Shown here one piece after another: positions 39,256 through 63,787 of a DNA stretch of 64,000 bases (positions within the stretch are counted from its first letter, which is position 1; each line of letters begins with the position of its first letter). The translations under genes were made by a program, and so were the position numbers. The DNA is taken from positions 182,094,001 to 182,158,000 of the forward strand of contig CM097883.1 of NCBI GenBank assembly GCA_044892505.1, given 5' to 3'. Below the pieces are notes generated by a model. That model saw only the letters and a program-made list of their open reading frames with translations. It had not been told where the DNA came from and searched no databases. This DNA is from Schmidtea nova (Eukaryota).

Positions 39256-39299
39256 ATTGGTCAGTCTAGATCAGACTGATCAGTATAAATACTGATCAG
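39256..39299 (+). promoter_or_regulatory. Putative LTR promoter: inverted CCAAT (ATTGG) plus TATAAATA box
   Basis: The same arrangement lies ~370-395 bp from the LTR start in all three copies (TATA at 27397, 35710 on minus, 39284). Confidence 0.7.
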
Positions 39300-40703: not shown

Positions 40704-41019
40704 CTGAATCAATGGCCGCCTGTTTTTAAATTAAATAAATGTTTTAAAGAATTCTGAAATGTTCGTTTTGTTAATAGTGTTGTCATGTAGATTTAGTATT
40801 GTAGTTGTTATAGTCATTAGGAAATTCATTTATTAATATAAAATTAGTTCAATAAACCTTTTGAGTCTTCAATAATTAGATAGTTAAATAATTTTGCAAA
40901 GAAATCAATAATTAAAAACATTAGTATACATCTCGTTTAATAATAATAATAGTTGTTTAAATAAAATAACATTGTTGATAGGCCCTCCAGTGAATTTATC
41001 GTTATAATCTTCAGACAAC

Positions 41020-41604: not shown

Positions 41605-42137
41605 GAAAATCTCCATGTAACATAACAACCTGTCTTTATTATTTTAATAAAGTATTACTGTGTAAATTTTTTCTCTCATCGTGTGATTTCACTAAATAAA
41701 ATAAGACTACATAAGTAATTCGTAGAACTAAAAATCGCATCGTAAAACCTACACCGACCGTTACTTAGCAGCGAGAGTTTTCGTAGGCTTGTAGAACAGC
41801 GAGGGAGAGCGTCATTGGGAAAAGCGTGTGATAGATCATAAGGATATGTAGTATAAAATTCAGTAGGAAACGAACATCCATAGAATGTAAATGCGTAAGA
41901 CCTTCTATCGGCAGCAAGAACCCGAGGGAAGATAAATGGGGAGTAGTTTTGGCGACAAAGCTCACCTGCCCATCATTTTTCCACCACCGTATGCAGTACC
42001 AACTTGACTAGTAGGGAATAGTCAAGGGCATACGCGTGTAGTAGTCATGTTATGTATGGTTATGGGCGCGGAATCCCTAGTATGATTAATTGTTTATTTG
42101 TATTACTTAAAACCCACCCATAATCCCAGCATAAATT

Positions 42138-42156
42138 TGGGGGCTCAGCCGGGATC
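42138..42156 (+). promoter_or_regulatory. Primer-binding site, tRNA-Pro-like
   Basis: TGGGGGCTCAGCCGGGATC, 6 nt after the LTR end. It is complementary to a tRNA 3' end GATCCCGGCTGAGCCC-CCA and close to the canonical Pro PBS TGGGGGCTCGTCCGGGAT. Confidence 0.8.
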
Positions 42157-42484: not shown

Positions 42485-42946
42485 ATGGAGGAAAAACTGA
42501 AAGAAATCGAGGAATTTTTCAACACCAAGAACGATACATTTGAGACAGTCTGCGAAAAAATAACCCGAATAAGAGCATCCGAATATGAGGAACCTACGAC
42601 ACAAACTGAGGAAACAACTGAGTTAATAAAAATCATAGAGAAAGTAAATAAACTCGATATAAATACGCGATATAAATGGTACAAAGCACGATTAGAGGAT
42701 GCCGAGTTGAATATCAGATGCCGACATATAGAACAGCAGTTAAGCCTAACATATAACCGATGGACGTCGCAAGGGGTCGAGGCAGCAAAACAATATAAAC
42801 AATGTTACATATGCGAAAACAGTGAAATCCAAATAATGTTTTTACCATGTGGACATTTTCGATTCTGTAAAAACTGTGCGAATAAGTGTGATGAGTGCCC
42901 CATGTGCAATTTCTCTGTAGCTGATAAAATTGTAGTTTATTTATAA
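42485..42946 (+). CDS. Accessory protein with a C-terminal IAP/Mdm2-type C3HC4 RING (153 aa)
   Basis: CYICENSEIQIMFLPCGHFRFCKNCANKCDECPMCNFSVADKIVVYL* at the extreme C-terminus; no BIR domain seen. Confidence 0.88.
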   Translation: MEEKLKEIEEFFNTKNDTFETVCEKITRIRASEYEEPTTQTEETTELIKIIEKVNKLDINTRYKWYKARLEDAELNIRCRHIEQQLSLTYNRWTSQGVEAAKQYKQCYICENSEIQIMFLPCGHFRFCKNCANKCDECPMCNFSVADKIVVYL

Positions 42947-43419
42947 TAAATATTTAGAGTGTTAATATATTGTATCGAATGACAAAGTCAAGGGAGCAAT
43001 CAACAATGTTAATTAATTTTTGAGCTACTGTCAAGTAGTCCGTTAAGCACCCATTGGGAGGTACCAGTTGATCAACCCACTCGGGGTATATAGAAAGGGG
43101 CCAATCGCAAATGTTGGAAAGCTTTTGTGATGTGATTGATCACCACATCCCGCATTAGTAGACCAACGCGATCTTTTTGTATATTTTGGTTGGGGAGAGA
43201 AATAGGGAAAACCCTGATGAGGTAAGATGCGCGCAGAGAAAATAATAAAAATTGAATTATGACTGATCAGCGAAAGAATTAGTAATAAAACAAAGAATCG
43301 AGGAATTGTAGAGAAAAATAAGAGGTGCATAATCAGCTCGCATGAAATTGAGAGAACTCAGCTGAGAAATTGTAGTCGCTAGCGAAGTTAAGAATTACGA
43401 TTAACCGGTTAAGGAAAAG

Positions 43420-47489: not shown

Positions 47490-50400
47490 CCAGGAGAGGT
47501 GACAACACTATCGATATGCGATGATAAGAGAGAAGAGAACCTACAAGAAGTAGCAAAGGAAGCAAATATGTGTTTCGAGAAGAAGATAAAACCACGGTTA
47601 GAATATGAGAAAGGACGAATCTTACGAGGAAATCTAAATTCCATGATAGAACAAATCATCCCACAAATCAAAAAACATAGAAAGGAGTTAATGAGAAGCG
47701 AATACGAAAAGTTGAAACGATGTATCGAATGCATACGTGACACAAGTCACACGAGATGGTCACAGATCTCATACGGAAAAGTAATTGCAAAAATGGGAAA
47801 AGCAATGTTCAGACAAGGGAAAATAACAGATCTGAAAATTGCAGTAGAGTTACCTAATGAGGATACCAAAGAAATTGAAGTGGTAGCAGATTGTACCATA
47901 AAAGAATTAGTAAATGTCATCAACGAGACACTATTACAAAGAGAACCAGAAGAAGAATGGGAAGATGACATAATCATGAAATACAACGAACATGTATTAT
48001 GGGATCACGATGAAAGACGGCTATATAAAATTGGTATATGGGATAATCACCAAACCATCCACGTTATCAGAATGGACGATACACCAAGAGAAACTGCTAA
48101 AGATGAGAAAAGAGAACGGGAACGAAAAAAAGAAGTTGTGCATAAATTACAACAAATAGTAGACATTTATCGAAATTGGCGGATTTGGCCAGAATGGGAA
48201 GACGTATTAGAAGAACTCAATCTCAACAGACGATTACCAACACCTGTAGAAAAACAATGGAACGAACGAGGAAAATGTTGGGAACCAAAAGCAGGCGAAT
48301 ACGAAGAGGAATACGGAATAGGCATAGAAGACGATCACAAACCGGAAACCGGAAGAGTCTGTATGGTAACAAGAAAAGCCATGCCAGCAGATTTAGACGG
48401 ACCAGAAACGACAACCATGTGGTTGGAAAGAGAAAAACAAAAAACGGAAGAATTTGTCGAAATATTAAAAACCAATGCGCACGGCAAGAGAAAAGTAGTA
48501 AAAGGTCTCGCAGATTTTTTCGTAGTTAATGGAGAAGACATAACATGCTTGCGTAAAGTAGCAAAAGCAATCGCCGAATACAAAAGAGTTAACGAGTGGT
48601 GTCCAGAACAATTGGATCACGTAATTAAAAAATGGAGAAACCAAGAATTCTCGCAGGAATCGCCACAGAAAGTACACCTAAGAATAGTATATCCGAACCA
48701 GGAAAAGGAAGAGTTTTGGGTAGGGATAGCGGAGAAAGTTCGAGACATTAAAAAGAAATTGAGATATGAACCACCATTCCATTTACAACACCAAGGACGA
48801 TCATTAGATAACAGCTTGGAAATTGGAATAACGCCAGCGCAATTAGATATCGCAAATACATTGACAGTGGCAGCAATAGCAGGCCAACCATTGAAATTGA
48901 AAGAGGAAAAGAAACCAAAGGGAAGTATGAGTACGCCGAGCCCAATGAAATCGGTAATGACTCCAGGAACAAGCTCAGAACAAGCTAGAACAACACCAAG
49001 AGATACAAGAGAAAGAACACCACCAGAACCATACGATGTAGACGAAATTTTTACAGATAGCGATGATATGTTAGAGGAGTTAATAGAGCTAACAAAAGAG
49101 AAAGATGATAATATTTTCGAAAGAATTCAAGAATTACCAACAGCAATACCGGTAACCAACACCGAAGATGAAGTTGAACAAGAAATAATCATCGAAGAAG
49201 TTAATGAAATAGCAGAAGAGGAAGCAAGGAGGGCAAATGTAGAAAATGTACAATTCACACAAGAAATGGAAAGATGGTTAGAAGAAAGAGCCAATGAACC
49301 AAGAGACGTTACAGAAGAAACTGGACGAGAAACAAGATTAGTAGAAACGGGCACGACAATGGATAAACGACCTAGAGGTAGACCCAAGATGGATCCAGCA
49401 AATGTAGTTATAAAATCAAGAGAGGAAAAAAGACGGGATCAATGGGATTTGTGTCTAAAGAAACTAAATAAAATAGCCGAAACGAAAGAAAAAGAAACAA
49501 CACAAACATACCAAGGCGAGGAATGGATATCAAAGATGTTAATGGAAATACTGGCAATAATCGATCCGGAATTAAAGAAATGGTGGAGAATAAACGAAAT
49601 AAGCGAAAGGGCGAAATCACTGCATAGCGCCATCGCACCAATCCTACCAGAACTAATAAAAGAGAAGACAAGGTCAAACCACCTAGATTGGCAAGGAACC
49701 ACGATGTTGATAAAGAAGTTAACGGAAGGAGCAGAGACGGATAACAAATATTTAATAGCTATAGCATACACCATCTACAATCTGCTGACACTGAGTAGAG
49801 GTCGACTGAAACCTACAGCACTCGAAAGACATATAAAGAATACAGCCAAAATTATAGAGAAAGAAATAGAACCGTACATCATCAGTAAAGGAGGATGGGA
49901 AACATTCACAAAAACGAACCAAAAGAAAAACCAAGCCAAAAATATGAAAAAGAAATTCGAAGAGATATTGGGAGAATTGGAAAAGGAAAAGTCGGGAACA
50001 GGAAACGGGAAATCATCACTAAACCTGAGTTCTATCATTATGATGATGTTAATATGGATGATTAGTACTGACGGAGCAACAGCATTTGAAGTATTCGATT
50101 GTGATCAAATGGCATTAGGTGAGAAATATTCACTACGAGGGACAGAACAATGTAAGGACGCAACCCCAACGGAGTTAAAAACATTAAAAAAGAGACAATT
50201 ATACCACGTATATCAGGAAGCTGAACTGATAAGAACAATGGTCAGGGAATGCAAAGTTTATAAAACCAGATTTGCTTTTTATTGTGGACACCGCCATTAT
50301 TCAGCAATCGTGATGCCAGGAACGGAAAGAGAATCGGTAATGCTGCAAGGAGAAGACTGTGAAAAATTATTTAAACATGGAGAAGTAGAGACTAGAGATA

Positions 50401-53400
50401 GAGTAAAGATAAGAGGAAAAACGGGAGTGATATTGCAACAAACATATTATGTAGCAGGAGCTATTACGGGAGGAGAAGGGTACTGCCAAGGAGCAACTTA
50501 TCCAATATTCGGAGTAGCAGCAACAAACCTAGTGGTAATAGATACGTATACAGTGGAACTAAAAACGTACGAGGCATTCTTCGATCCAACGACGGGAGAA
50601 ATGAAAACTCTACCTATGTGCAAAATCGAGTCAAACACTTGTCAGACTGGTATGTCAACCCTAACCTACCAGATACGAGGAAAGGAATGTCAACTACAAC
50701 TGTTAAAGGAAGCAGAATTCGATGAGATACAAGGGAAAACCTTCCAAGAGGAAGAAGAAGACGAGGCAGCAAGAGGAAAAATACTTCAAGACACAGTACG
50801 GGGAGAGAAAAAGATTGAAACCCGAACACAAGAAAAACAAATTAAAATGAGAAATACACCAACGGTACTAATTACCTCAGATGCAGATATCGGAATGAGG
50901 TTTGTAAAAGGAAAAACAGCCTTGAAATGCGGAGTAGCTATGTTGGAAACCAACTACCCCGGCATTTTTGTATCAAAACAAGAAGTACCTAGTGCGAAAC
51001 GCAAAGTGCACACGAACGATGTTAAATTACACCTTTACATGAACAATAAAATGGATTTTCTGTTCCATAGAGGACAAGCGTCACTACAAAAAGTGTATTA
51101 CGATTTAATTAACAACGATTGCATATTAAATAGGGAAATATTAAAGACAAAACTAGCGGTAGCAATCACAAACCCGGATAGTGCAATGCCATTATTACCA
51201 TTAAGAGAAGGTCATTTTGGAAGGGTAGTCGGAGAGGTCATGTACGTATACATATGTAAAAAGACAAATGCGAAGGTAGCGACAATGACAAAACTACAAC
51301 CAGGTCAGTGTACTAACGAACTAGAAATCGAATATAAAGGGAAAGTAAGATATGTACAACCAGTGACAAGAATCATAAATCCAATAAGCTTCGAACCAAA
51401 TCCTTTCAATTGCAGCAACGCATATGGACCACTATACCAAAAACCAGACGGAAATTGGGTTATGTTTCCGTCAAGAACAGAGGTACCAGCACCAAGGGAA
51501 TTTGAATTGATGCAACTATCAAAAGGACGAAAATTTAAAGACGTAGACGTAAGCAATATGGGATTCTATAACGCAAAGGATTTAGAAGCAGCAAGACAAA
51601 ACATACTATTTCCGGCAAGACGAGAAGCGGTGTTATCCAGTATTGTAACAATAACAGGAGGAACAAATTACCAAGGTGGACCAAATTACGAATTATTATT
51701 GTCACCAGCCCACTTTAAGAAGGCAACGGAAAACATGATGAAAGCGATGTGGGGAAGATTTTTAATATTTGGACAAATGATGGCAGGAATACTTGGTGTT
51801 ATACTAATTATACAAATAATACGGGTAATAATAACGCAAATGTTAGCCTGTTTTGACATCTATAAAAGAGAAAAGAAAGTAAATTGGAAATTGGTGGTAG
51901 GATTCTTACCATTTCTGGCTAAAACAATGGTATTACACGGTCATTCGAAAGATATTCACCGAATAAAGAGACTCCTAAAAATACTGGCAAAAATGAAAGG
52001 AACCGATGAAGAGGTGGGACGAAAGTTTAAAAAGATAATGAATAACGAGCAAGCAAGACAACAACTAAAGAAAGAGAGAAAAGGACTATGGGAAAGAATG
52101 AAAGGGTACAGAACCCAAGACGATTCCAGTGACGACGATGATGATGATAACGAAGGAGGTCAAGTATTTAAAAATCAAGTACCACAGTATGTCGAAAAGA
52201 ATCCAGCGGAAATGTGGAAATGTTACGCACCCCCACCGACCATGTACCAAGAACCAACACCAGGGATGAGACAAAATACAATGCAAATGATGCCGATGAC
52301 AAACATATATCCTATGATACCAGAAGACTATAGAACGAGACGGTGCAGAAGCGTAGATCCGCAAGGAGACTCACATACAATTGCAGTAATGTCATCAAAC
52401 ACCGGTCCAGTATTAACTACAACAATCGAAATTAACGGAAGGGAAATAGAAGCGATGATCGATACAGGAGCAAATATCTCAGCAATAGATATAAAATGGA
52501 TACCACAAGAACAAAGACGGGATATTGAGAGAACCAACGTTCACGTAATAGCATGCAGTAAAGAAGTAGTAGAAGTTGCCGGAAGATGGTGGGTAAAGAT
52601 AAAACATCAAAACACGGAAATCGAAACGTACGTAGCAGTAATACCAGCACTGAGCGTACCATGCATTATAGGTACGGATCTGATGCCAGCATTATTTAAA
52701 GAAATAGTTATTGACCTCGGAACAATGAGATTAAAGGATAGGACAGGACAGATATGCGCAATAGAAGCAAAAGTAACAAGTTCGAAACAAATAATCGTAC
52801 CAGCACGGAGAGAGAAAATATGTTTCGTAAAAATAGATCCTACAATAGAAGGTGACATGATCTTTGAACCCAGTAAAAGATTTGAAAAGAGAAAGTCGTT
52901 GCCAATGGCAAGGGGATTAGTGAGTGCGAATGACAACGGAGAAATCCCGATAAATGTAGTAAATTTCGATGAGGAGGATAAAATAATTTATGAAAATGAA
53001 AGATTAGGTAAACTAACTCCAATGATAGATATCGAAATACCAATAAAAGAAGGAGTAAAAGAGGAGGAACCCACTTGGAACATTAATAGCCAACTATTAA
53101 ATGAGGACCAAAAGAAACAGCTAGAAAGATTACTGATGGAATATAAAGACATATTCGCAGCATCCGATTTAGATTTAGGGACATGCGACGTCACACTACA
53201 TACGATTCCACTAACAGACGAAACGCCGATTGCGTTAAGACCATACAAGTTAGCTGAAGCGCAAAAATCAGTAGCAGAAGCAGAAGTACAGAAAATGCTA
53301 GACGCAGAAGTAATTGAACCAAGCTGCTCACCGTGGCAGTTCCCAGTTGTAATGGTGAAAAAGAAAGACGGAACACAACGATTTTGTATTGATTATCGGA

Positions 53401-56400
53401 GATTAAATGCAGTTACAAAAAGGGATACATACCCATTACCGGACATCAACGAGATGTTATTGACATTACAAGGAGCGGCATATTTTACATCATTGGATTT
53501 GAAAAGCGGATACTGGCAAATTAAAATGAAAGAGGAAGACAAAGAGAAAACTGCTTTCACTATCGGAAGAGACTTGTACCAATTTAGGAAAATGCCATTC
53601 GGACTAACCAATGCGCCAGCATCATTTCAAAGATGTATGAATTTCGTTACCCACGGCATAAAACAATGCATGGTTTACATTGACGACCTACTGATCTACT
53701 CAAGCACATTTGAACAACACATCCAAGATATCAGAGATGTATTTGTTAGATTGAGACAATGGAAACTCAAGCTCAAACCATCGAAATGCGATTGGGCAAA
53801 AGAGAAAGTGACATTCTTAGGACATATTGTGTCCGCAAAAGGAAAGGAACCAGATCCCAGAAACATTGATAAAGTAAAAGAATGTCCAGTACCAAAGACG
53901 ATAACGCAGATCCAAGAATTTCTCGGATTATGCGGTTACTATAGAAAATTCATAAAGGATTACGCAGGAATTGCAAAACCAATCCAGGAGCTAGTAAAGA
54001 AAGACGTATCGTTCATATGGGGAAGCGAACAACAAACAGCCTTCGAAACATTACGAGATAAGTTAATAACTGCACCAATATTGGTTCACCCGGATTTTAA
54101 AAAGCCATTCTTACTCGCAACCGACGCAAGTGGATATGCAGCAGGAGCAGTGTTAGGACAATATGATGACGAGGGAAAAGAGCGGGTAATCGGATATTAT
54201 AGCAGAACATTCAAGAAACACGAGAAGAATTATTCAGTAACGGAAAGAGAAGCATTGGCAATAATATTAGCAATAAAACACTTTAAATATCTATTATGGG
54301 GACACATTATATGCATAACCACAGACCATCAACCACTTGTATGGCTAGGACAACATAAGGAAACATCCAGCAGATTAATGAGATGGGCGATGCAATTACA
54401 AGAATATTCACCAGATATAAAATTCAAATCAGGAAAAGCGAATGCCAACGCAGATTGTATGTCAAGATTAACGTTTCCAGAACTAACAGACCCAGAAGTG
54501 CAAAGAATATGCATAATGATAGCAGAGGACTTGGATTTCAGTGAGTTAAAGAAAGATCAGCAAGAGGATAAAGAACTAAAACCCATCATAGAATTTCTAA
54601 GCTCACGAAATATGGATGTATTCGAAGACAATGCGGAGTTAAAAGAACACATGAGGAAATACCAACACCGATACACAATAGAAAAAGGATGGTTGTTAAT
54701 ACAAGATGGAGAAAAACGATTAATGTGTCTGCCAAGTAATAGACGAAAAGAGATAATAACTCAATACCATGACGGAAAGCTAGGAGGACACATGTCCTCT
54801 AAGAAAACATTAGATCGTATGAGACAGAAATATTATTGGCCAACAATGGACGAAGACGTAAAGGAATGGATAAAGAACTGTTTAACTTGTGCCACAAGAA
54901 AGGATAGTGGGAAGAAATGGAAAAATCCCTTAAAACCCATGCCAATACCAGCGGAACCAATGACTACCATTGCGATGGATGTAATAGGACCATTGCCAGA
55001 AAGTTTAAACGGGAATCAATATATATTGGTAATAACGGATTATTTGACTAAATTCCCTGAAGCATTTGCGATGCCGGATCAAAAAGCAAAGACGGTAGCA
55101 AGAATTTTAGTAGAGGAAATATGTTGTCGATACGGAACCCCGAAACAAATACTAACAGATCAAGGAACAAATTTTATGAGCGAAATACTAGATGAAGTAA
55201 CAAATTACTTCAGAATAGCCAAATTACGAACGTCACCATATCATCCGCAAACCAACGGGCAAACGGAAAGATTTAACGGCACATTGATTCGAATGTTATC
55301 CAATTATGTAAGCAAACACCAAACAGATTGGGATGAATACGTAAAGCTATGTCTAATGGCATACCGAATGTCGATACACGCAGCAACAAAATTGAGTCCA
55401 TTTCAATTAATGTATGGAAGGGAATGCAATATGCCAATAGATCTTGAATATCAACCACCTTTGTCTCAATATATGGAGGAAGATGATTACGTCACCAAAT
55501 TCAAAGAACGAATGCAAGAGATATGGAAGACAGCAGAACTAAACATAAAGTTTTATCAAGAAAGTTACAAGGACCTACACGATCAAAAGAAAAATGTTAA
55601 AACAAATGATCTTAAACCCGGAGATTGGGTAATGATAGAAACCCCAGAAATAATACCAGGAACCGTTAAAAAACTACAAAGACCAGGAAAAGGCCCTTAC
55701 GAAGTTATATACAAAAAGGAAAACAATGTGAAGGTAAAACTTGTTAATCGACCATTGATACGACCAATATACGTTAATACATGCAGATGTAAAAAAGTAC
55801 CAAAGACAATAACCACAGCGCCAGAAGAACGAATAATAACCAGATCCCAGACAGCCAGAATGAATATGCTCAGAGCAACCAATGAAAGTACCGAAGCAGA
55901 GAACAATCAACGAGGAAAAAGAAACAAGGAAATTGTACTAAAAGCCAGAGAAATAATGGGAAAATGGCATGTCAGAGACGATATATTAAGAGATATTCAG
56001 TCGATAATTAGTGATTACGCAAGGGGACTACCAACAAAACCAGTCATTTCAGAACTACTGGAAAAGATTCCAGAAATACTTTCACTAGAAGACATAGGAG
56101 GACAACCAGCATTACATAACGCCATAAAATGGGGAGAAGTAGAGAGAGTAAAAGAATTTCTAAAAATCGCTAAGGAAACAAACCAACACCTTGGTTTTGG
56201 GAATAGCGAACAAGAAACACCATTAATGGTAGCAGCCATCTACAAATCGGATAAAGCAATAATAGACCTTTTGATAAATGCCGATTTCAACTGGACGGAA
56301 CGCGATAGAGAAAACAAAACAGTCTTGAATCACGCAATATGGAGCTCAAATCAGATAATGCTCAAACAAATAATCGAGAAGGCCACTTGGGAAATAGACG

Positions 56401-59400
56401 AACTGATCAAAGGTGATATAATCAAGGAGGCAATAAAAATCGGTAACTGCAAAACAATACGCAAGCTAATAAAATGGAAAAGATCCGAAAATGATACATG
56501 GGTGTTAAATATAAACGAGGTATACAGTGAAGGGCAAAACACGTTATTACAATTCCTATTAAAATTCGTTTGTGACCAGAAAGCACTGTTAACGTTATTA
56601 GACAGAAGAAATATCATAATTTCCAAAAACAAAGAGGAGTGTAAATTCGAAAGTGAAAAAGAAGCATTATTCAGGAAAATTAGGGAATGGTGTGCAAAAT
56701 CGCTAACCAAGACGATAACTTACAAAGATATATCCAATTTTCAAGATAAATACAAAACGGTGGAGGAAGAGTATGACAAACTAATAGACATATTAAACCA
56801 CCCCGAAAAATGCAAACAATTCCTATGTCAAAAGGAAAGAGAAAGCAAAAGGAAAGTTACACCACTTTTCAGCGCAGAGGTACCATATCAAGAAAGGTTA
56901 GATGCGATACAGGACAAAGCAAAAGAACTATTACCAGAATTCGAAAATTCTAAACATACACTGGAGATACTCGGATCAATTGTGGAAAAGGTACACGCAT
57001 ATGCGGAAGGAACTTACAATGAAAACGATATGATGATCATAAAAAGAGAAATGCCAGTGACTTTCTTATTAACAAAGAATGGAGTATTGCCAATACATAG
57101 AGCCTTACGAGCAGGAAAAAATAGGAGGGTAGTCGAAATTGCACGGTTGATGCAAGATTGCGGAAGTGACATGAACATGAAAGATAAAAAGGGAGACACC
57201 CTCATGATATTTGCAGCAAGAGCGAACACAAAAACCCGAGTGTTACAGGAACTGTACGAAGTAGGTGCAGGACTCATGGGAAGAACTAACAAAGACAGCT
57301 CAATACTAGACGTAGCGTTGTTAACGTACAATTGGGAGGTGATAAATTTTATAAAAACAATCACAAATCAGGAGGAAATAGAATACCTTACAAGGAGAGT
57401 TAAAAAAGCTAGCGTACATTCCATGATGCATAACGCTGAACTAACTGAAGTAATACTCAATTGGATGAACCCAAACACCAATGAACCAGCATTCAGGATC
57501 AACGAGTGCATGGAACAAGGCCAGAATTTATATATAAAGTGTGCATTAATAATAAACAAATGGCCAAACATAATAGACATCTTCATGAGAAGAAAAGATT
57601 TACGATTCACAAACAACCCAAAGGAAACAGAACGTACGGACAAATGGAAAGAACTAATGAAAACGTACCTTAATAATTGGATAAAAGCCAAGAAAGAGAT
57701 TCTAGATTGTAAATTAACCGATAAGGAAATACCTAAGCAGGCAGTAACACAAGAATATGAAGCAAGTATACTCACAACCATAACGTATGAAAAAATGATA
57801 GAAGCAATTAATGTCGAGGACGACATTTTCAACGACCAAAGGGGAGGCGACAATACAGGAAACGACGACGATAGTACTCGAGAAAATCCAGAGGATCATG
57901 AGTTACTAGATAAAGAGGACAGTGAAGAGAAAGGAAGGGACACAGAGAAAAATGATAAGAAAAATGAATTTGGGAAACAAAGAAACAACAACTATAAAAA
58001 TAAAAACGAAGTAAAAAGAACAGGCTACAAACAAACAATAAACCCATTCTTTAAACCAGAACTATTATTACTAACGATAATCATGACCTTAATTAGTCCC
58101 ACTCAAGGAATGATATGTGAAGAAAGAGCGACAATACAAATTGGAAACGCAAAAGGAATCGAACGAGTATGTTGGTCAAAAAAGGACAAAATCTCGGGAC
58201 AAAATAGTCCAATGGATTGCAGGATCTCAGAATACGAACAAGAAATCATAGAGATCGATGACCTAGAGCTAGATACTTGGTACAGAATGTGCACCGTTCG
58301 GAAACCAAAGGATCCGAGATCACATAAGACAATTGCATGTGCAAATTACCTAACACCCAAAGTAACCATAACAGTACAGCAGTCATCCAAAGGAGACTAT
58401 GTCGTAGGAAAGTGTGGAAGAACAGAGACACAAGGAACAAAAAACAAGAAACCTCAGACAATAGACAGACGAACAACGCCAACTATACAAATTACCATAG
58501 ACAGGCCCGAAGTAAGAGTAACCACAAATGAAACTGAAAGAGTGACCTACCAAACAGAATTACTATGTTTAGCACTCATATTAACAATGTTAAAACGGTT
58601 AGAAGAAGGGATAGACATTGACACAATGGCAGTAACAGAGATGAACGACACCCAAAACACCAACCCAAAGTGTTGGGCCAGAAGCAACGAAGAAATTGGC
58701 GTAAGCGAAATAAAGACGAGTCGGAAAAGGAAAACAAATAAAGTAACCAAGATATCAGAAGTAAAAGCAGACAGGACGTATGAACTATGTTTACTAGAAA
58801 AAGAAAGACACAAGAAAGGAACGACAATTTGTAAAACATTTCAACCTGGGGAAACAATAAAGTTCATACGACGAGGAAGAAGAAATAAACGCACCAAACG
58901 GAGAACAACTATAATGTTAGAGTTAACCGGAATAGAACCGGACGTCAAAGGCGTATGCTGGAAGAAGCAGGAAAAGAAAACAAACCAGAATACACCGCCG
59001 CAATGTCGAACAAACAGAGGAACAACCACAATACAGATAGAAGGGTTAGAAAGTAATCAAACGTACGAAATATGCCTGATCAGGAAGAGCGACAAAATAA
59101 CAGTAAATGAACTGGAATGCAAAATATATAAAACACCCACCGGAACAAGAATTGGAAAGACAACGCGAAAAAGCAGAAGACAACGGAACAAAGGAAAAAC
59201 GAGGTATACCACTACTTTTAAACCTAATGGACAACAGAAAAACCAAGAAATACAAATAAAAACCGAAAAGAATACTACAGCAACTCTTATACTATGGAGA
59301 ATAGACAATAAAACGTTAGAAATATGTTGGGCAGTAGTCCAGGAACAAAAAGAAAGACAGCCACGATACTGCGAAAACGTAAAAGGAAAAGAAGAAATGA

Positions 59401-60002
59401 GTATCAAAAATCTGAAATTTAATAGAGAATACGAGATATGTGCGGTAGAAAAGACGGACATATTAGGAAATCAGCAGGAAAAATGCGAAACGTACTACAC
59501 ACCGGTAAACTCAACGTCCAAAGGGAAAGTGAGAAAACTCGAATTTAAAGAATTAAGTCAGACAACGAAACAAATGGACGCGGAACAAATAGTAATAGAC
59601 CCTTACGCAAGATGGACGCCGGAAGAAGTAATTAAAGAAGTTAAAAGAAAACAACAAGAACGAGAACAACTACTAAATAAACTAAAGGGACAATATGGAC
59701 CAATGATTAACCAGAGTGAAATTACGAAGATGGACGTAAACAAACAAGTTAGAGAACTAATTGGTCTAGGAATACTAGCAGCAACTATTCCAGTAATAAC
59801 AGTATTATTAATAATATGGATATATGATGTATTCAACAAGAAACCAATAACACATTGGCCAGATATAAAGATTATGAACTACAGTATAGAATTACCGGAA
59901 GAAGTACATAAAGAATTCCAAAGGGGGACGAAAGGTAAAGAATTTTGGAGACAAATAGAAGATGAAGAGCGATACGAAGGAAAGACAGTGATGGTGATAT
60001 AG
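47490..60002 (+). CDS. Polyprotein continuing the gag frame: Ubl domains, AT-hook, Bcl-2-like domain, signal peptide + chuvirus-like glycoprotein + TM, PR, RT, RNase H, integrase, ankyrin repeats, signal peptide + 4 FN3-like repeats + TM
   Basis: PR IDTG at 52461; RT LDLKSGYWQ and YIDD at 53676; RH TDAS; IN H-H-C-C, DDE and GPY. Glycoprotein ~50085-51855; BH2-like YIISKGGWETF at 49875-49907; ankyrin-like repeats ~56090-57340. Confidence 0.93.
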   Translation, partial: PGEVTTLSICDDKREENLQEVAKEANMCFEKKIKPRLEYEKGRILRGNLNSMIEQIIPQIKKHRKELMRSEYEKLKRCIECIRDTSHTRWSQISYGKVIAKMGKAMFRQGKITDLKIAVELPNEDTKEIEVVADCTIKELVNVINETLLQREPEEEWEDDIIMKYNEHVLWDHDERRLYKIGIWDNHQTIHVIRMDDTPRETAKDEKRERERKKEVVHKLQQIVDIYRNWRIWPEWEDVLEELNLNRRLPTPVEKQWNERGKCWEPKAGEYEEEYGIGIEDDHKPETGRVCMVTRKAMPADLDGPETTTMWLEREKQKTEEFVEILKTNAHGKRKVVKGLADFFVVNGEDITCLRKVAKAIAEYKRVNEWCPEQLDHVIKKWRNQEFSQESPQKVHLRIVYPNQEKEEFWVGIAEKVRDIKKKLRYEPPFHLQHQGRSLDNSLEIGITPAQLDIANTLTVAAIAGQPLKLKEEKKPKGSMSTPSPMKSVMTPGTSSEQARTTPRDTRERTPPEPYDVDEIFTDSDDMLEELIELTKEKDDNIFERIQELPTAIPVTNTEDEVEQEIIIEEVNEIAEEEARRANVENVQFTQEMERWLEERANEPRDVTEETGRETRLVETGTTMDKRPRGRPKMDPANVVIKSREEKRRDQWDLCLKKLNKIAETKEKETTQTYQGEEWISKMLMEILAIIDPELKKWWRINEISERAKSLHSAIAPILPELIKEKTRSNHLDWQGTTMLIKKLTEGAETDNKYLIAIAYTIYNLLTLSRGRLKPTALERHIKNTAKIIEKEIEPYIISKGGWETFTKTNQKKNQAKNMKKKFEEILGELEKEKSGTGNGKSSLNLSSIIMMMLIWMISTDGATAFEVFDCDQMALGEKYSLRGTEQCKDATPTELKTLKKRQLYHVYQEAELIRTMVRECKVYKTRFAFYCGHRHYSAIVMPGTERESVMLQGEDCEKLFKHGEVETRDRVKIRGKTGVILQQTYYVAGAITGGEGYCQGATYPIFGVAATNLVVIDTYTVELKTYEAFFDPTTGEMKTLPMCKIESNTCQTGMSTLTYQIRGKECQLQLLKEAEFDEIQGKTFQEEEEDEAARGKILQDTVRGEKKIETRTQEKQIKMRNTPTVLITSDADIGMRFVKGKTALKCGVAMLETNYPGIFVSKQEVPSAKRKVHTNDVKLHLYMNNKMDFLFHRGQASLQKVYYDLINNDCILNREILKTKLAVAITNPDSAMPLLPLREGHFGRVVGEVMYVYICKKTNAKVATMTKLQPGQCTNELEIEYKGKVRYVQPVTRIINPISFEPNPFNCSNAYGPLYQKPDGNWVMFPSRTEVPAPREFELMQLSKGRKFKDVDVSNMGFYNAKDLEAARQNILFPARREAVLSSIVTITGGTNYQGGPNYELLLSPAHFKKATENMMKAMWGRFLIFGQMMAGILGVILIIQIIRVIITQMLACFDIYKREKKVNWKLVVGFLPFLAKTMVLHGHSKDIHRIKRLLKILAKMKGTDEEVGRKFKKIMNNEQARQQLKKERKGLWERMKGYRTQDDSSDDDDDDNEGGQVFKNQVPQYVEKNPAEMWKCYAPPPTMYQEPTPGMRQNTMQMMPMTNIYPMIPEDYRTRRCRSVDPQGDSHTIAVMSSNTGPVLTTTIEINGREIEAMIDTGANISAIDIKWIPQEQRRDIERTNVHVIACSKEVVEVAGRWWVKIKHQNTEIETYVAVIPALSVPCIIGTDLMPALFKEIVIDLGTMRLKDRTGQICAIEAKVTSSKQIIVPARREKICFVKIDPTIEGDMIFEPSKRFEKRKSLPMARGLVSANDNGEIPINVVNFDEEDKIIYENERLGKLTPMIDIEIPIKEGVKEEEPTWNINSQLLNEDQKKQLERLLMEYKDIFAASDLDLGTCDVTLHTIPLTDETPIALRPYKLAEAQKSVAEAEVQKMLDAEVIEPSCSPWQFPVVMVKKKDGTQRFCIDYRRLNAVTKRDTYPLPDINEMLLTLQGAAYFTSLDLKSGYWQIKMKEEDKEKTAFTIGRDLYQFRKMPFGLTNAPASFQRCMNFVTHGIKQCMVYIDDLLIYSSTFEQHIQDIRDVFVRLRQWKLKLKPSKCDWAKEKVTFLGHIVSAKGKEPDPRNIDKVKECPVPKTITQIQEFLGLCGYYRKFIKDYAGIAKPIQELVKKDVSFIWGSEQQTAFETLRDKLITAPILVHPDFKKPFLLATDASGYAAGAVLGQYDDEGKERVIGYYSRTFKKHEKNYSVTEREALAIILAIKHFKYLLWGHIICITTDHQPLVWLGQHKETSSRLMRWAMQLQEYSPDIKFKSGKANANADCMSRLTFPELTDPEVQRICIMIAEDLDFSELKKDQQEDKELKPIIEFLSSRNMDVFEDNAELKEHMRKYQHRYTIEKGWLLIQDGEKRLMCLPSNRRKEIITQYHDGKLGGHMSSKKTLDRMRQKYYWPTMDEDVKEWIKNCLTCATRKDSGKKWKNPLKPMPIPAEPMTTIAMDVIGPLPESLNGNQYILVITDYLTKFPEAFAMPDQKAKTVARILVEEICCRYGTPKQILTDQGTNFMSEILDEVTNYFRIAKLRTSPYHPQTNGQTERFNGTLIRMLSNYVSKHQTDWDEYVKLCLMAYRMSIHAATKLSPFQLMYGRECNMPIDLEYQPPLSQYMEEDDYVTKFKERMQEIWKTAELNIKFYQESYKDLHDQKKNVKTNDLKPGDWVMIETPEIIPGTVKKLQRPGKGPYEVIYKKENNVKVKLVNRPLIRPIYVNTCRCKKVPKTITTAPEERIITRSQTARMNMLRATNESTEAENNQRGKRNKEIVLKAREIMGKWHVRDDILRDIQSIISDYARGLPTKPVISELLEKIPEILSLEDIGGQPALHNAIKWGEVERVKEFLKIAKETNQHLGFGNSEQETPLMVAAIYKSDKAIIDLLINADFNWTERDRENKTVLNHAIWSSNQIMLKQIIEKATWEIDELIKGDIIKEAIKIGNCKTIRKLIKWKRSENDTWVLNINEVYSEGQNTLLQFLLKFVCDQKALLTLLDRRNIIISKNKEECKFESEKEALFRKIREWCAKSLTKTITYKDISNFQDKYKTVEEEYDKLIDILNHPEKCKQFLCQKERESKRKVTPLFSAEVPYQERLDAIQDKAKELLPEFENSKHTLEILGSIVEKVHAYAEGTYNENDMMIIKREMPVTFLLTKNGVLPIHRALRAGKNRRVVEIARLMQDCGSDMNMKDKKGDTLMIFAARANTKTRVLQELYEVGAGLMGRTNKDSSILDVALLTYNWEVINFIKTITNQEEIEYLTRRVKKASVHSMMHNAELTEVILNWMNPNTNEPAFRINECMEQGQNLYIKCALIINKWPNIIDIFMRRKDLRFTNNPKETERTDKWKELMKTYLNNWIKAKKEILDCKLTDKEIPKQAVTQEYEASILTTITYEKMIEAINVEDDIFNDQRGGDNTGNDDDSTRENPEDHELLDKEDSEEKGRDTEKNDKKNEFGKQRNNNYKNKNEVKRTGYKQTINPFFKPELLLLTIIMTLISPTQGMICEERATIQIGNAKGIERVCWSKKDKISGQNSPMDCRISEYEQEIIEIDDLELDTWYRMCTVRKPKDPRSHKTIACANYLTPKVTITVQQSSKGDYVVGKCGRTETQGTKNKKPQTIDRRTTPTIQITIDRPEVRVTTNETERVTYQTELLCLALILTMLKRLEEGIDIDTMAVTEMNDTQNTNPKCWARSNEEIGVSEIKTSRKRKTNKVTKISEVKADRTYELCLLEKERHKKGTTICKTFQPGETIKFIRRGRRNKRTKRRTTIMLELTGIEPDVKGVCWKKQEKKTNQNTPPQCRTNRGTTTIQIEGLESNQTYEICLIRKSDKITVNELECKIYKTPTGTRIGKTTRKSRRQRNKGKTRYTTTFKPNGQQKNQEIQIKTEKNTTATLILWRIDNKTLEICWAVVQEQKERQPRYCENVKGKEEMSIKNLKFNREYEICAVEKTDILGNQQEKCETYYTPVNSTSKGKVRKLEFKELSQTTKQMDAEQIVIDPYARWTPEEVIKEVKRKQQEREQLLNKLKGQYGPMINQSEITKMDVNKQVRELIGLGILAATIPVITVLLIIWIYDVFNKKPITHWPDIKIMNYSIELPEEVHKEFQRGTKGKEFWRQIEDEERYEGKTVMVI

Positions 60003-60127
60003 GAGGCGGGATATGACTGTAAATAATAGTGTAAATAACAATGCATTACCGTAATAGTATGGGTATCGATATTATAAAAATATAAAAAGAGAAATCGAGA
60101 AAACGATTAATGTATATAATTTAGAAA

Positions 60128-60484
60128 ATGAACGAACAGGAAGAAATAGCAGAAACTACTATGGCTATGCGATGGAAAGCCCAGTGTGACATGTTAATAC
60201 GAACAATCAACTCACTACAAAATCAGTTAATTGAGAAACAGAATTTGTTATCCGAAAGTTATAATAATAGTTTTGAACAACTCCACAGAATCGAGGAGCA
60301 ACAGAGATTGATAACGCAACTTACCAGAGAGAATCAAGTGATGAGCGACATAAATCAGAGACAAGCAATAGAGATAGACCGTTTAACAATGGGAGAGACA
60401 GAAGAAGCAGAGGATGGATGGACAAATTGGGCAATAAACAGATCAGAAAATGACCCAGAACCAGATTCAACAAACGAGCCGTAG
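60128..60484 (+). CDS. Small coiled-coil accessory protein (118 aa)
   Basis: Intact ATG ORF preceded by an AG acceptor-like site; heptad Q/E/L-rich. Confidence 0.7.
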   Translation: MNEQEEIAETTMAMRWKAQCDMLIRTINSLQNQLIEKQNLLSESYNNSFEQLHRIEEQQRLITQLTRENQVMSDINQRQAIEIDRLTMGETEEAEDGWTNWAINRSENDPEPDSTNEP

Positions 60485-60575
60485 ATAAATAAAGCGAAAA
60501 ATTGTAAATATGTAAAAACAAAAACAAGAAAAATCAAAAAATAGATAACAAATCAAGTGTATATATCATTGTAGA

Positions 60576-61958
60576 ATGAATACAGAAGGAAAAGCCGAAG
60601 AGCGGATAATCGAAATTTTGAGAGCCGAGAACAGGAAATGGAGTCAGAGACTCACTTGTGTAAATTGTAAAAACATAATATTGAAACCAAGACAAACCCT
60701 ATGCGGATGCAGAGTATGTACCAAATGCATACACGAGTTAAGTATGAAAAGACCACCAGAATGTCCAGAATGCAAAGAAGGACAAATAAAATTCGAAGAA
60801 ACCGGACCAGATAGAGCAACTCAGAGAGAAATCATGAACACGAAAACCGAATGTATAAATCAACCATGTATATGGCAAGGACAAATACGCGATCTCGAGA
60901 ACCATCTGGAGAACTGCGAGGAGAAGAGAACCGAATGTAACAAATGCCAACAAAAAATAACTATAAAGAATAAAGAGCAGCACAAAGATGAATGCAAAGA
61001 AGAGGAAAGTCTATGCGAATATTGTGGAACTCGAGAAACGAGGAGAAAGATCGAGGAAGAACACCTGAATGTAAAAGAGGAGAAAGTATGTAGACAATAT
61101 GTAGGAATATGTTCAAACGAATGCGAGATAACGGCAGAAGTAAAATTACAAGAACATTGGAAAATGTGCACGGAGAAACCAAGGGAATGCCCTTATAACA
61201 AACAGGGATGTATGGAGAAAAGAACGCAAAAAACCATGAAACAACATCTGGAGGAAGCATTGCTAAAGCATGCGGAAATGACAAACGAAGCAACAAAAGA
61301 AACCGAACAAACAATCAAAAAATTAGAAAGAGAAATAGAGTCACACAAGATAATGGTAAACCTACTGTTGGAAACCAGAGAGCAATTCGAACTAACACGA
61401 GAAAAGATGGAGGAAAAGATAAAAGCTATCGAAGAATTGGCTAAAGGAATGAAAATCCAGTACAACAAACTCACCCAGGATACCGAAGAAAAGTTACCAA
61501 TCGCACCATATGTGTGGAAAGTGACAGATTTTAGAAACAAATTAACAGAGGCCAGAAATATGACGAAAACAGCAGTAATAAGCCCACCATTTTATTTATG
61601 GAGAAACGGAGCTAAAGTGAGATTGAAGCTATACCCAAATGGAGACGGAAGAGGACGAGGAACACATGTGTCAATATTTTTCTCGCTATGTAAAGGAGAA
61701 TACGACGACCTAGTAGAATGGCCCTTGAAAGTAGGAGTCATTGTAAGAATCAGAAGTGTAACAAAACCAGTGGAAAAATTCTTTGAGACAGAGAAACATG
61801 CGAGTACGAGCGAGAAACCAACCACAGAATGCGGATTAGCAGCGGGAGAACCGATGTTTATAACGAAAGAAAGCCTATGGGAACGATTATATGCAGACAC
61901 CCTATACATAGAAATGGAAAGGAATGAGAAAGCAGATAGAAAAGGATGGCTGACGTAA
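60576..61958 (+). CDS. TRAF-like protein (RING, TRAF zinc fingers, coiled coil, MATH), 460 aa
   Basis: CVNC..PRQTLCGCRVC..C..CPEC RING; C..QPC.W.G...L..H...C finger; MATH motifs WKV.DF, SPPFY, LYPNGDG.G.GTHVS.F, EWP. Confidence 0.92.
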   Translation: MNTEGKAEERIIEILRAENRKWSQRLTCVNCKNIILKPRQTLCGCRVCTKCIHELSMKRPPECPECKEGQIKFEETGPDRATQREIMNTKTECINQPCIWQGQIRDLENHLENCEEKRTECNKCQQKITIKNKEQHKDECKEEESLCEYCGTRETRRKIEEEHLNVKEEKVCRQYVGICSNECEITAEVKLQEHWKMCTEKPRECPYNKQGCMEKRTQKTMKQHLEEALLKHAEMTNEATKETEQTIKKLEREIESHKIMVNLLLETREQFELTREKMEEKIKAIEELAKGMKIQYNKLTQDTEEKLPIAPYVWKVTDFRNKLTEARNMTKTAVISPPFYLWRNGAKVRLKLYPNGDGRGRGTHVSIFFSLCKGEYDDLVEWPLKVGVIVRIRSVTKPVEKFFETEKHASTSEKPTTECGLAAGEPMFITKESLWERLYADTLYIEMERNEKADRKGWLT

Positions 61959-62071
61959 CAAGAGAAGTGATCATGTAAATAATATGTACAGTTAAATACC
62001 CAAAAATTATTATATAAACAAAAATAACTGATATATAAACCGATTAAAATTTTCATTCTGTAATTTTAGCA

Positions 62072-63133
62072 ATGGGAAATATCGAGGTATGCTTACAGGA
62101 AATTACGATGCATCAAGCAGAAGCGATTAGCGATCATCTAGAACAGATAGAAATATGGGTCAATGCATATTATAGAAAGCAAGAGGAGATAGAGAGACAA
62201 GCCGAATTATTAAAAGAAGCGGAAAGATCAAGTCAAAGAAGTCGAGAAAAAATAGAGGAAGTATACAAAATGCTACAACAACAAAAGGAATATTACCAGA
62301 GAATGATGAAAGAGCGACGAGAGGAAAGAGACAGACAGCAGATGGAAGCTGAACACAAGATGTATTCGATTACAGAACAAGCAAGATATTGGAAGAAAGA
62401 AGCGAAAGAATCTTACGAAAAAGCTAGAGAAATAATAGAAAGGACAGCTTATAGCGATGACTGGAAATTATATAAAGAGATCGACGAATTAAAAGACGAG
62501 TTAGAACAGAAAATACACCAAGAAGTGTTGAATAAAAGATGGAATACAAAGAGACAGCAATTTATCCGGGAACAAGCAAAGAAAATTAAAGGACTAACCT
62601 ATCAAGTTCAAAGAATGGGAGAAGAACTAGCTAATCAAGAACAACTGAAAACTATGCTCACCGGAATATGGAATCAGAAAGAAGAAGAGATGAAGAGAGA
62701 TATAAATGGTTATCAAGGGGTGATTACTCAAAAGAAAATAGAGCTAAAAAGAACCAGGGAAAGGTTAAAGGAAGAGAAACAAAGTTACGAGGAAAATTTA
62801 ACGAATTTGATGAAAGAAAACGAAGAATTGAAACAGAAACGAGTAACAGTATCAGTAATACCCAAAGAACCAAGTATAACGGCAGCCGTAACAAAAATGA
62901 TAAAAGAAGACGAACAAAAGACAAAAGTAATCGAATTAGAGAAACAAATAGAAACATTAACAGAACAAGCAAATTACCTAGAATATTTGCTAGACGAGGA
63001 GATCCAGATATCTCACATGTATCGAGATGAAGTCGAAATGTGGAGGAGCAGGGTTGTTTGGATACCACTCCCCACGAACCAAGTAGAGCCTCAGGACGAA
63101 GGTTTCTATGAACCAAATGAGACGATTGTGTAA
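62072..63133 (+). CDS. Long coiled-coil accessory protein (353 aa)
   Basis: Intact E/K/Q-rich ORF with an AG acceptor-like site 2 nt before the ATG. Confidence 0.75.
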   Translation: MGNIEVCLQEITMHQAEAISDHLEQIEIWVNAYYRKQEEIERQAELLKEAERSSQRSREKIEEVYKMLQQQKEYYQRMMKERREERDRQQMEAEHKMYSITEQARYWKKEAKESYEKAREIIERTAYSDDWKLYKEIDELKDELEQKIHQEVLNKRWNTKRQQFIREQAKKIKGLTYQVQRMGEELANQEQLKTMLTGIWNQKEEEMKRDINGYQGVITQKKIELKRTRERLKEEKQSYEENLTNLMKENEELKQKRVTVSVIPKEPSITAAVTKMIKEDEQKTKVIELEKQIETLTEQANYLEYLLDEEIQISHMYRDEVEMWRSRVVWIPLPTNQVEPQDEGFYEPNETIV

Positions 63134-63214: not shown

Positions 63215-63787
63215 ATGAAAAAGCTCAGAATACCGATATTCCTATATCTAATAACAATCACCCTACAAAGAGAAGATCTTCAACTCACAGAGAAGGAGCT
63301 ACGAGCCCTACCCGAGAAAACCTATCAAGAACTAGATAAACTAATCAGCGAAGCAACACAAGAAATCACCCAACTTCAACAGATAACATCAGACAACCCA
63401 AACGATGAAAAATTTCAACAGGTCCTATATGAACATCGAATCAAATTGAAAACAATCAGAAAAACCCTAAAAGAAGGTCGAGAACCCATAAAAAGCTTAG
63501 CCCAAGCAGAGATAGAATATCAAGAAAAATGGATCATCGCAATTATAATAATCCTTGCACTCAGCGTGACCATTATCGCGATCACAATCCTCATAACATC
63601 ATACCGAGTGAAGATCTTAAAACAAAAACATGTCATCCTGAATCGAACAACAATACAAGACATCAGAACCCAAAAGCGAATGAGAAAACACCTAAACCGA
63701 ATCCAAAGCCACTACGAACTACGAACAATCAGCGAAAGAACCCCAATCCAATCCAATACCAATCATGAAATCAAAGAGCTTGTGTAA
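63215..63787 (+). CDS. Predicted membrane protein (N-terminal hydrophobic leader, helical domain, TM, basic tail), 190 aa
   Basis: MKKLRIPIFLYLITITL leader; TM WIIAIIIILALSVTIIAITILIT. Confidence 0.72.
   Translation: MKKLRIPIFLYLITITLQREDLQLTEKELRALPEKTYQELDKLISEATQEITQLQQITSDNPNDEKFQQVLYEHRIKLKTIRKTLKEGREPIKSLAQAEIEYQEKWIIAIIIILALSVTIIAITILITSYRVKILKQKHVILNRTTIQDIRTQKRMRKHLNRIQSHYELRTISERTPIQSNTNHEIKELV

What the first reader, a model, noticed from the sequence alone, without database searches (positions are those of the whole stretch)
60576..61958. Complete intronless TRAF gene carried 3' of pol
Seen: RING, zinc fingers, coiled coil and MATH domains intact in one exon inside the LTR boundaries; the RING has Cys in place of the usual His (CGCRVC). 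Inference: a captured host mRNA used to rewire TNFR/TLR signalling. Retroelement amplification could also help explain lineage-specific TRAF expansions in a host genome.
Basis: partly seen in the sequence, partly recalled or inferred. Interest (0 to 1): 0.75.

Follow-up and report, generated by a model that had tools for sequence, protein, structure and literature searches.

The report
Giant retrotransposon carrying its own TRAF
A complete, single-exon TRAF signalling gene sits inside a giant retrotransposon of the Burro type, likely from a planarian flatworm, likely travels with it as long-standing cargo and is predicted to help keep the host cell alive; TRAF domains in such elements were already reported, so this is a new arrangement of a known thing.

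Summary
ORF 60576-61958 encodes an intact 460-aa TRAF: RING, five zinc fingers, coiled coil, MATH. It lies inside a roughly 28-kb Ty3/gypsy element (5' LTR 38889-42131; 3' LTR starts at 63992). The element has the Burro layout: gag, env in frame ahead of protease, RT, RNase H, integrase, ankyrins, plus an XIAP-like RING ORF. The TRAF is not a one-off insert. Public-run contigs cover it at the depth of pol (304-427 against 306-482), it has no flanking duplication or poly(A) tail, and its silent sites share pol's A bias (0.61). It nests among planarian-type TRAFs. The His-to-Cys RING change is shared with named planarian TRAFs, so it is inherited. A 2019 review already reports MATH/TRAF domains in Burro elements. 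Not found in print: a full stand-alone TRAF 3' of pol, in a row of four ORFs with 81-125-nt spacers, acceptor-like sites and a repeated TGTAAATA motif, which suggests spliced expression. Likely role: a pro-survival adaptor, like Burro1's IAP. Classical TNFR/NF-kB wiring is doubtful in planarians. Element-driven TRAF expansion is untested and explains at most part of the family's diversity. Verdict: new variant of a known kind.

The parts
38889..42131 (+). 5' LTR (3,243 bp, TG...CA), holding two ORFs of unknown function (40227-40703, 41020-41604)
   Evidence: ORF relatives in other LTR pieces of the window
42138..42155 (+). primer-binding-site-like 18-mer (tRNA-Pro likeness recalled)
   Evidence: sequence
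42485..42946 (+). 153-aa ORF with C-terminal XIAP/cIAP-type RING and no BIR domain
   Evidence: Pfam zf-C3HC4_3 E 2e-11; XIAP RING E 1e-10; no BIR pattern in six frames
43221..43226 (+). the only splice-donor-like site (G|GTAAG) found between 38889 and 45100; candidate common donor for subgenomic mRNAs (inferred)
45039..47489 (+). gag, 816 aa, three CCHC knuckles; its TGA is in frame with the polyprotein that follows
47568..60002 (+). 4,144-aa polyprotein: weak ubiquitin-like and Bcl-2-like hints, viral fusion glycoprotein, protease, RT, RNase H, integrase, ankyrin repeats, then a signal-like segment, FN3-like repeats (lead) and a transmembrane segment
60003..60127 (+). spacer 1: TGTAAATA twice, acceptor-like YAG 3 nt before the next ATG
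60128..60484 (+). accessory ORF, 118 aa, no confident family
60485..60575 (+). spacer 2 (91 nt): AATAAA at 60488, TGTAAATA at 60503, acceptor-like TAG at 60572-60574
60576..61958 (+). complete single-exon TRAF gene, 460 aa (the finding)
60657..60773 (+). RING, residues 28-66, eight Cys (Cys45 in the His position)
60852..61271 (+). five TRAF-type zinc fingers, residues 93-232
   Evidence: invariant and near-invariant Cys/His columns
61260..61478 (+). coiled-coil helix, residues 229-301 (predicted)
61509..61916 (+). MATH / TRAF-C domain, residues 312-447
61959..62071 (+). spacer 3: TGTAAATA at 61974, T-rich acceptor-like site 2 nt before the next ATG
62072..63133 (+). accessory ORF, 353 aa, Glu/Lys/Gln-rich, no Pfam family
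63215..63787 (+). accessory ORF, 190 aa, one transmembrane segment
63992..64000 (+). first 9 bases of the 3' LTR

Best explanation
The TRAF is an intact gene inside a giant Burro-like LTR element; it was likely taken from the host's planarian-type TRAF family long ago, is likely copied with the element, and is predicted to act as a pro-survival signalling adaptor in the cells where the element is active. Shown: gene, domains, position between the LTRs, element layout, equal contig depth with pol, shared silent-site bias, place in the tree. Inferred: (a) capture as a processed transcript, then long residence; (b) expression from a spliced subgenomic RNA, using the acceptor-like site 1 nt before the ATG, joined either to the leader donor at 43221 or to a spliced leader; (c) the protein trimerises through coiled coil and MATH, binds a partner set that differs from TRAF2/3's, and feeds the survival and stress pathways in which planarian TRAFs act; (d) this protects the carrier cell and so favours the element, as reported for Burro1's IAP. 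The RING has Asn and Lys where TRAF6 has Ile and Leu (the E2-binding role of those positions is recalled), so a scaffold role is more likely than strong stand-alone ligase activity.
For: Layout matches the published Burro description, including env in frame between a Bcl-2-like region and protease. Five contigs over the TRAF have depth 304-427 with 0-6 differences; four over pol have 306-482; strongly diverged pieces have 6-69 (32 of 9,522 pieces shown). Three contigs from three runs bridge the upstream ORF, spacer and TRAF start with no difference. Four-fold sites are A in 0.61 of TRAF codons, 0.61 of the polyprotein and 0.63 of gag, against 0.19-0.39 in five ORFs outside the element; codon-usage correlation with RT-IN is 0.86 against 0.16-0.50. 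No flanking duplication or poly(A). The planarian-type clade holding the gene has support 99.6/99, and 92.4/99 after recoding; it includes TRAFs named from Dugesia japonica and Dendrocoelum lacteum. 27 of the 39 listed coding differences across the laid stretch fall at third codon positions (p 5e-6), and the three unpaired abundant indels lie in spacers. YAG within 6 nt of the ATG with 7 or more T upstream: 5 of 7 accessory ORFs, against 1 of 349 ATGs inside gag-pol. Planarian TRAF RNAi raises cell death (PMC7586133, Discussion). Burro1's IAP protects stem cells (as summarised in PMC13465017).
Against: No expression or functional data. No listed contig joins pol to TRAF, so carriage in other copies rests on depth, and depth is not a copy number; the 4 runs are one study and may be the window's source. 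Only 2 of the 40 listed variable places lie in the TRAF, so selection on it alone is not measured. The genomic context of the three closest relatives (P0014, P0030, P0040) was not seen, and their grouping may be helped by shared composition (support 95/98, falling to 84.7/83 on recoding). The Bcl-2-like and ubiquitin-like domains are only weak hints (E 0.1 and 0.047), and there is no BIR. The background for the acceptor test is coding sequence, which is T-poor, so the test is lenient. The motifs were chosen after looking. Pro-survival function is by analogy only.
Confidence: 0.6

Rival explanations
1. The element's TRAF is a decoy. It forms mixed trimers with host TRAFs or occupies their partners and dampens the TBK1/TRAF innate response that would otherwise act on the element's RNA, cDNA or particles.
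For: Pocket changes against TRAF2/3: the positions of F456 and C469 are Ser and Glu, while 4 of 10 hot-spot residues are identical and 4 conservative (mapped through TRAF3). Polar residues in the RING at TRAF6's Ile and Leu positions. The element has an env gene. TBK1 restricts foreign nucleic acid and induces TRAFs in planarians (PMC13563047, passages).
Against: All domains are kept intact, whereas a decoy could do without RING and zinc fingers (inference). Planarian host-type TRAFs also vary at these pocket positions, and TRAF2/3/5 also lack TRAF6's Ile (and recall).
Confidence: 0.25
2. The TRAF is a passenger: captured once, copied with the element, with no current benefit.
For: No expression or function shown; two of the three closest relatives lack a recognisable MATH domain, which may mean decayed copies.
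Against: About 35% identity to the nearest relatives with zinc ligands kept, complete adoption of the element's silent-site bias with an open 1,383-nt frame, and a kept acceptor-like site imply long purifying selection.
Confidence: 0.08
3. The TRAF is the downstream adaptor of a receptor-like protein that the element itself encodes (FN3-like repeats plus a transmembrane segment at the polyprotein's end), forming a private signalling circuit with the IAP-type RING.
For: Signal-like segment at residue 3497 and transmembrane segment at 4061; FN3 families are the nearest feature hits at 0.87, a lead only; XIAP-type RING ORF; an altered pocket would suit a private partner.
Against: FN3 has no Pfam support. 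The RING ORF lacks the BIR through which cIAPs bind TRAF2 (recalled). No interaction data.
Confidence: 0.06
4. A recent one-off insertion of a host TRAF retrocopy into this single copy.
For: Other full-length copies were not seen end to end.
Against: Equal depth with pol, bridging contigs, no duplication or poly(A), silent-site bias equal to pol.
Confidence: 0.01

Closest known systems
Burro1 / GYPSM1 and Burro2-4, Schmidtea mediterranea (PMC6431247, section 7 read in full)
   Same: Giant Ty3/gypsy LTR element; gag with three CCHC knuckles; env in frame before protease; PR-RT-RH-IN; ankyrins; MATH_TRAF_C and IAP-related cargo; gag-to-pol frame about 4,990 codons here against 4,873 aa.
   Different: In Burro1 the MATH domain is part of the polyprotein, ahead of the ubiquitin-like and Bcl-2-like domains. 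Here it is a full RING-zinc finger-coiled coil-MATH gene on its own, 3' of pol. No BIR here. One in-frame TGA separates gag from the rest in this copy.
Burro-like element of Dugesia tigrina (same review; sequence not shown there)
   Same: MATH_TRAF_C encoded by a separate accessory ORF.
   Different: That ORF is upstream of the polyprotein; whether it has a RING and zinc fingers is not stated. Two CCHC knuckles there, three here.
Burro1 B-IAP (Lee et al. 2026, Dev Cell; not held, seen only as summarised in PMC13465017)
   Same: Host-derived cell-death regulator carried by a Burro element; this element has an IAP-type RING ORF too.
   Different: B-IAP has RING and BIR and a demonstrated role in stem-cell survival. 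Nothing is demonstrated for this TRAF, and that paper may already describe TRAF ORFs.
Planarian TRAF family (D. japonica TRAF2-like A; D. lacteum TRAF-2, -4, -5; PMC6109357, PMC7586133)
   Same: Same domain order, same Cys-for-His RING, same clade.
   Different: About 26-33% identical; normal amino-acid make-up; not known to lie in elements.
Vertebrate TRAF2/3/5 (PDB 1kzz, 4gjh, 1ca9 and others)
   Same: Same MATH fold; closer than TRAF6 by sequence (E 1e-22 against 1e-5 to 1e-7 for MATH).
   Different: His-containing RING; two pocket residues differ radically.

Membership tests
TRAF family | C-terminal MATH/TRAF-C domain | tested here: met
TRAF family | N-terminal RING followed by TRAF zinc fingers | tested here: met
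   eight-Cys variant
TRAF family | Coiled coil before MATH | tested here: met
   predicted helix 229-301, pLDDT about 90
TRAF family | Trimer formation, receptor binding, ubiquitin ligase or scaffold activity | not testable with these tools
   needs biochemistry
TRAF1/2/3/5 receptor-binding class | Ten conserved hot-spot residues (PMC6125299, passages) | tested here: not met
   4 identical, 4 conservative, 2 radical changes, mapped by eye through the TRAF3 alignment
Ty3/gypsy LTR retroelements | PR-RT-RH-IN order, gag, two LTRs, primer site | tested here: met
   the 3' LTR is seen for 9 bases only
Burro elements | Giant size (internal region up to 25 kb, long LTRs) | tested here: met
   internal region 21.9 kb, LTR 3.2 kb; about 28 kb if the LTRs are equal
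Burro elements | Fusion-glycoprotein env in frame before protease | tested here: met
   Monjiviricetes_fusion E 1.5e-67 ahead of RVP in one ORF
Burro elements | Ankyrin repeats and MATH_TRAF cargo | tested here: met
   MATH in a separate 3' ORF
Burro elements | Bcl-2-like, ubiquitin-like and dUTPase-like domains at the published positions | tested here: inconclusive
   Bcl-2 E 0.1 and Ubiquitin_4 E 0.047 at the expected places, no dUTPase hit; low-confidence model
Burro elements | BIR domain (Burro1-4) | tested here: not met
   no BIR pattern in six frames, no Pfam BIR in the ORFs scanned; hence filed as Burro-like, not as Burro1-4
Burro elements | RT groups with named Burro sequences; triclad host | not testable with these tools
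   no Burro sequence was retrieved; host inferred from named TRAF relatives

The most novel reading that the evidence does not exclude
Burro-like elements express a row of accessory genes as an operon-like cassette resolved by spliced-leader trans-splicing, with Pumilio-type 3' control, and so deliver a small signalling kit (receptor-like FN3 protein, TRAF, IAP-type RING, Bcl-2-like domain). Their copies make up a measurable share of the 'expanded' planarian TRAF family and have fed TRAF genes back to the host.
Probability: 0.15. Interest if true: 0.8.

Novelty: new variant of a known kind. Interest (0 to 1): 0.45.

Why it matters
Planarians are reported to have an unexplained excess of TRAF/MATH genes (121 domains in PMC6109357; 282 contigs in PMC7586133), and Burro1 was recently reported to be a mutualist through a captured IAP. 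An intact, ancient, multicopy TRAF gene in a Burro-like element joins these two threads. It makes two questions testable: how many counted planarian TRAFs are element cargo, and whether some wound- or infection-induced TRAFs targeted by RNAi are element genes. The A-rich signature is a cheap filter for this. The spacer anatomy also offers a concrete answer to how a 28-kb retroelement expresses genes placed behind pol. The core idea of TRAF cargo in Burro is not new, which caps the score.

Tried and rejected
No whole genome is held for the window, so copies could not be counted. No RNA holder was listed, which is no evidence on expression. Searches for DNA context of relatives found nothing: viral contigs with the TRAF, metagenome contigs with alignment A2 and with P0035. 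The env query returned one 28-residue match (L001), taken as chance and not examined. The whole polyprotein retrieved 5 generic gypsy or fused proteins, none Burro-like; the search for longer, fused TRAF forms gave 1 protein with no retroelement domain (weak evidence). The Bcl-2-like segment was not confirmed: no PDB sequence hit, no atlas hit, model pLDDT 48.7 and best Z 6.1 to unrelated chains. Complex prediction of the TRAF coiled coil-MATH trimer with the RING ORF gave no answer. No tRNA genes in the window and no Rfam family in 38000-64000. Earlier scan notes: nothing. Rejected: the RING Cys as an element-specific change; a one-off insertion; the minus-strand ORF 61592-62056 as a gene (antisense shadow, not tested further). 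The joint 61958 to 57976 (depth 276, 32 letters, 1 of 4 runs) is read as a misplacement on A-rich sequence but is unexplained. The careful tree did not finish; its quick tree used 66 of 111 rows, and one search used 31 rows, without the coiled coil and with the unalignable tails of P0030 and P0040 left out. Two papers that bear on novelty were not held: Lee et al. 2026 and Grohme et al. 2018 with its supplement.

Full report
Observation. The ORF at 60576-61958 is real and complete: 460 aa in one frame. MATH is at 312-447 (Pfam E 5e-21). The N-terminal 150 residues align with the RING and zinc fingers of TRAF6, TRAF5 and TRAF2 structures (E 7e-12 to 8e-10). In a 16-row alignment the Cys/His columns of five zinc fingers are invariant or nearly so. 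The model built from that alignment (mean pLDDT 84.8) has a 73-residue helix and a beta-sandwich, and every Foldseek row shown is a TRAF.

The element. A-skew on the + strand rises from 0.01 before 38889 to 0.39 in 45039-63991. The 5' LTR runs 38889-42131 and is followed by a primer-site-like 18-mer. Its first nine bases recur at 63992, the window's last nine. A related solo LTR at 36077-33097 (-) has the same start and end and a 4-bp flanking duplication, which confirms the termini. Inside lie an XIAP-type RING ORF, gag with three CCHC knuckles, and a 4,144-aa ORF with a viral fusion glycoprotein, protease, RT, RNase H, integrase and ankyrins. Weak ubiquitin-like and Bcl-2-like hits sit ahead of env, and an FN3-like, membrane-anchored region ends the ORF (lead only). 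Gag's stop is in frame with the long ORF; whether it is read through or particular to this copy is open, because the laid stretch began at 48001. This layout is the one described for planarian Burro elements (PMC6431247, section 7). The host is likely a triclad: the named best TRAF hits are from Dugesia japonica and Dendrocoelum lacteum. BIR is missing and no Burro sequence could be retrieved, so I file it as Burro-like.

Is the TRAF stable cargo? Four public runs hold 69-71% of the sampled words of 55000-63990; they are one study and may be the window's source. Laid on 48001-64000, each gave 2,146-2,775 contigs over a wide range of identity, as expected of a multicopy family. Of the 32 pieces shown (of 9,522), five over the TRAF have depth 304-427 and 0-6 differences; four over protease-to-integrase have 306-482; pieces with 40 or more differences have 6-69. 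Three contigs bridge the upstream ORF, the spacer and the TRAF start with no difference. None of the 15 joints shown (of 59) skips the whole gene. Two low-depth joints inside it fit diverged relatives. No listed piece joins pol to TRAF, and depth is not a copy number, so carriage in most copies is inferred. Composition gives independent support: four-fold sites are A in 0.61 of TRAF codons, as in the polyprotein (0.61) and gag (0.63), against 0.19-0.39 in five ORFs outside the element. The 130-nt flanks share only one A-rich 9-mer and have no A run over 6. Across the laid stretch, 27 of 39 coding differences among the 40 best-supported places (of 1,663) are at third positions, and the three unpaired abundant indels are in spacers (12 of 23 rows shown). 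Only two of those places are in the TRAF.

Origin. Trees place the gene in a clade with the named planarian TRAFs (96; 99.6/99 and, recoded, 92.4/99). Its nearest rows are P0014, P0030 and P0040 (95/98; 84.7/83 recoded), whose source organism and context are not given. They share its skewed make-up (0.58-0.65 against 0.45-0.50 for 11 other clade members), and two lack a recognisable MATH domain. They are likely cargo of related elements, but this is inference. The sister host gene is unresolved, so the direction host-to-element is the simplest reading and not a tested one. The Cys-for-His RING occurs in 11 of 13 aligned relatives with the segment, including D. lacteum TRAF-2, -4 and -5.

Expression. 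The four ORFs behind pol are separated by spacers of 125, 91, 113 and 81 nt. Each has a YAG 1-3 nt before its ATG. With the two LTR ORFs and the RING ORF, 5 of 7 accessory starts have a YAG preceded by 7 or more T in 15 nt, against 1 of 349 ATGs within gag-pol (a lenient background). TGTAAATA stands 15-21 nt after each of the four stops, never in 14,964 nt of gag-pol, and 0 of 5,000 shuffles put it in all four spacers (motif chosen after looking; its match to the Pumilio site is recalled). One donor-like site lies in the leader at 43221. Cis-spliced subgenomic RNAs and spliced-leader trans-splicing both fit; flatworm operon candidates are defined by gaps of 300 nt or less, and trans-splicing is described in S. 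mediterranea (PMC12582326, passages). I favour cis-splicing slightly because a donor is present. No RNA evidence was available.

Function. Of ten TRAF2 receptor-contact residues (PMC6125299, passages), mapped through TRAF3, four are identical, four conservative and two radically changed, both in the hydrophobic pocket. Partner choice likely differs from TRAF2/3. Planarian TRAFs are needed for cell survival and respond to wounds, irradiation and microbes (PMC7586133, Discussion). Burro1's IAP protects stem cells from apoptosis (summarised in PMC13465017). The element's other cargo points the same way. I therefore commit to a pro-survival adaptor (0.6 for the whole account; about 0.9 for the structural part), with an immune decoy as main rival (0.25). 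Clear NF-kB and IRF3 homologues were not identified in S. mediterranea, while TBK1 controls TRAF induction (PMC13563047, passages), so TUNEL and TBK1 read-outs suit better than NF-kB reporters.

Novelty. PMC6431247 states that Burro1-4 carry MATH_TRAF_C and that a D. tigrina element encodes it in an upstream accessory ORF. Ten searches listed no paper describing a full TRAF gene 3' of pol, the spacer anatomy, or a link between Burro and the TRAF expansion; 'Burro' with 'TRAF' returned only that review. PMC6109357 (passages) reports 121 MATH domains, and the passages seen draw no such link; PMC7586133 has no occurrence of 'transpos' or 'retro'. The two most relevant primary papers (Grohme 2018 with supplement, Lee 2026) were not held and may already cover part of this. 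PMC8532177, PMC6211748 and PMC11410931 (passages) added nothing on the TRAF. On expansion, 3 of 14 clade members examined look element-like, so elements cannot account for most of the family's deep diversity, though near-identical copies could inflate gene counts. Verdict: real, ancient, likely selected cargo; a new variant of a known kind; interest 0.45.

Noticed in passing
window 27011-30113 (+) and 33097-36077 (-): Two older solo LTRs, about 3 kb, 64-70% like the ends of the main 5' LTR; both keep relatives of the two LTR-borne ORFs (E 1e-7 to 1e-18). The minus-strand one has a 4-bp flanking duplication. The left end of the first is approximate.
   Followed up: partly
window 40227-40703 and 41020-41604: Two ORFs inside the LTR, no Pfam family, weaker A bias than the internal genes, conserved across LTR subfamilies.
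   Followed up: partly
window 58050-60002: Polyprotein end looks like a type I membrane protein: signal-like segment, repeats with FN3-like features and basic clusters, a transmembrane segment and a tail of about 58 aa.
   Followed up: partly
window 47487-47489: Single in-frame TGA between gag and the 4,144-aa ORF; the gag frame is also open for about 150 codons before its first ATG.
   Followed up: partly
window 43419-44080: Three sets of short tandem repeats (units of about 30-61, 36-38 and 42-55 nt) in the leader between the RING ORF and gag.
   Followed up: no
window 42485-42946: XIAP-type RING ORF directly after the primer site, without BIR, unlike Burro1's B-IAP.
   Followed up: partly
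window 1-2331: Protein-primed-type DNA polymerase B ORF (Pfam DNA_pol_B_2, E 5e-30), open at the window's start; Polinton-like by recall.
   Followed up: no
window 17807-18454, 21759-22319, 24414-25610: hAT dimerisation domain, DDE_1 transposase piece, and an ORF with DUF7047 and integrase hits: other mobile elements.
   Followed up: no
window 61958 (run X1): One abundant contig leaves the window's sequence right after the TRAF stop and continues with 32 letters that fit 57976; seen in 1 of 4 runs, unexplained.
   Followed up: no
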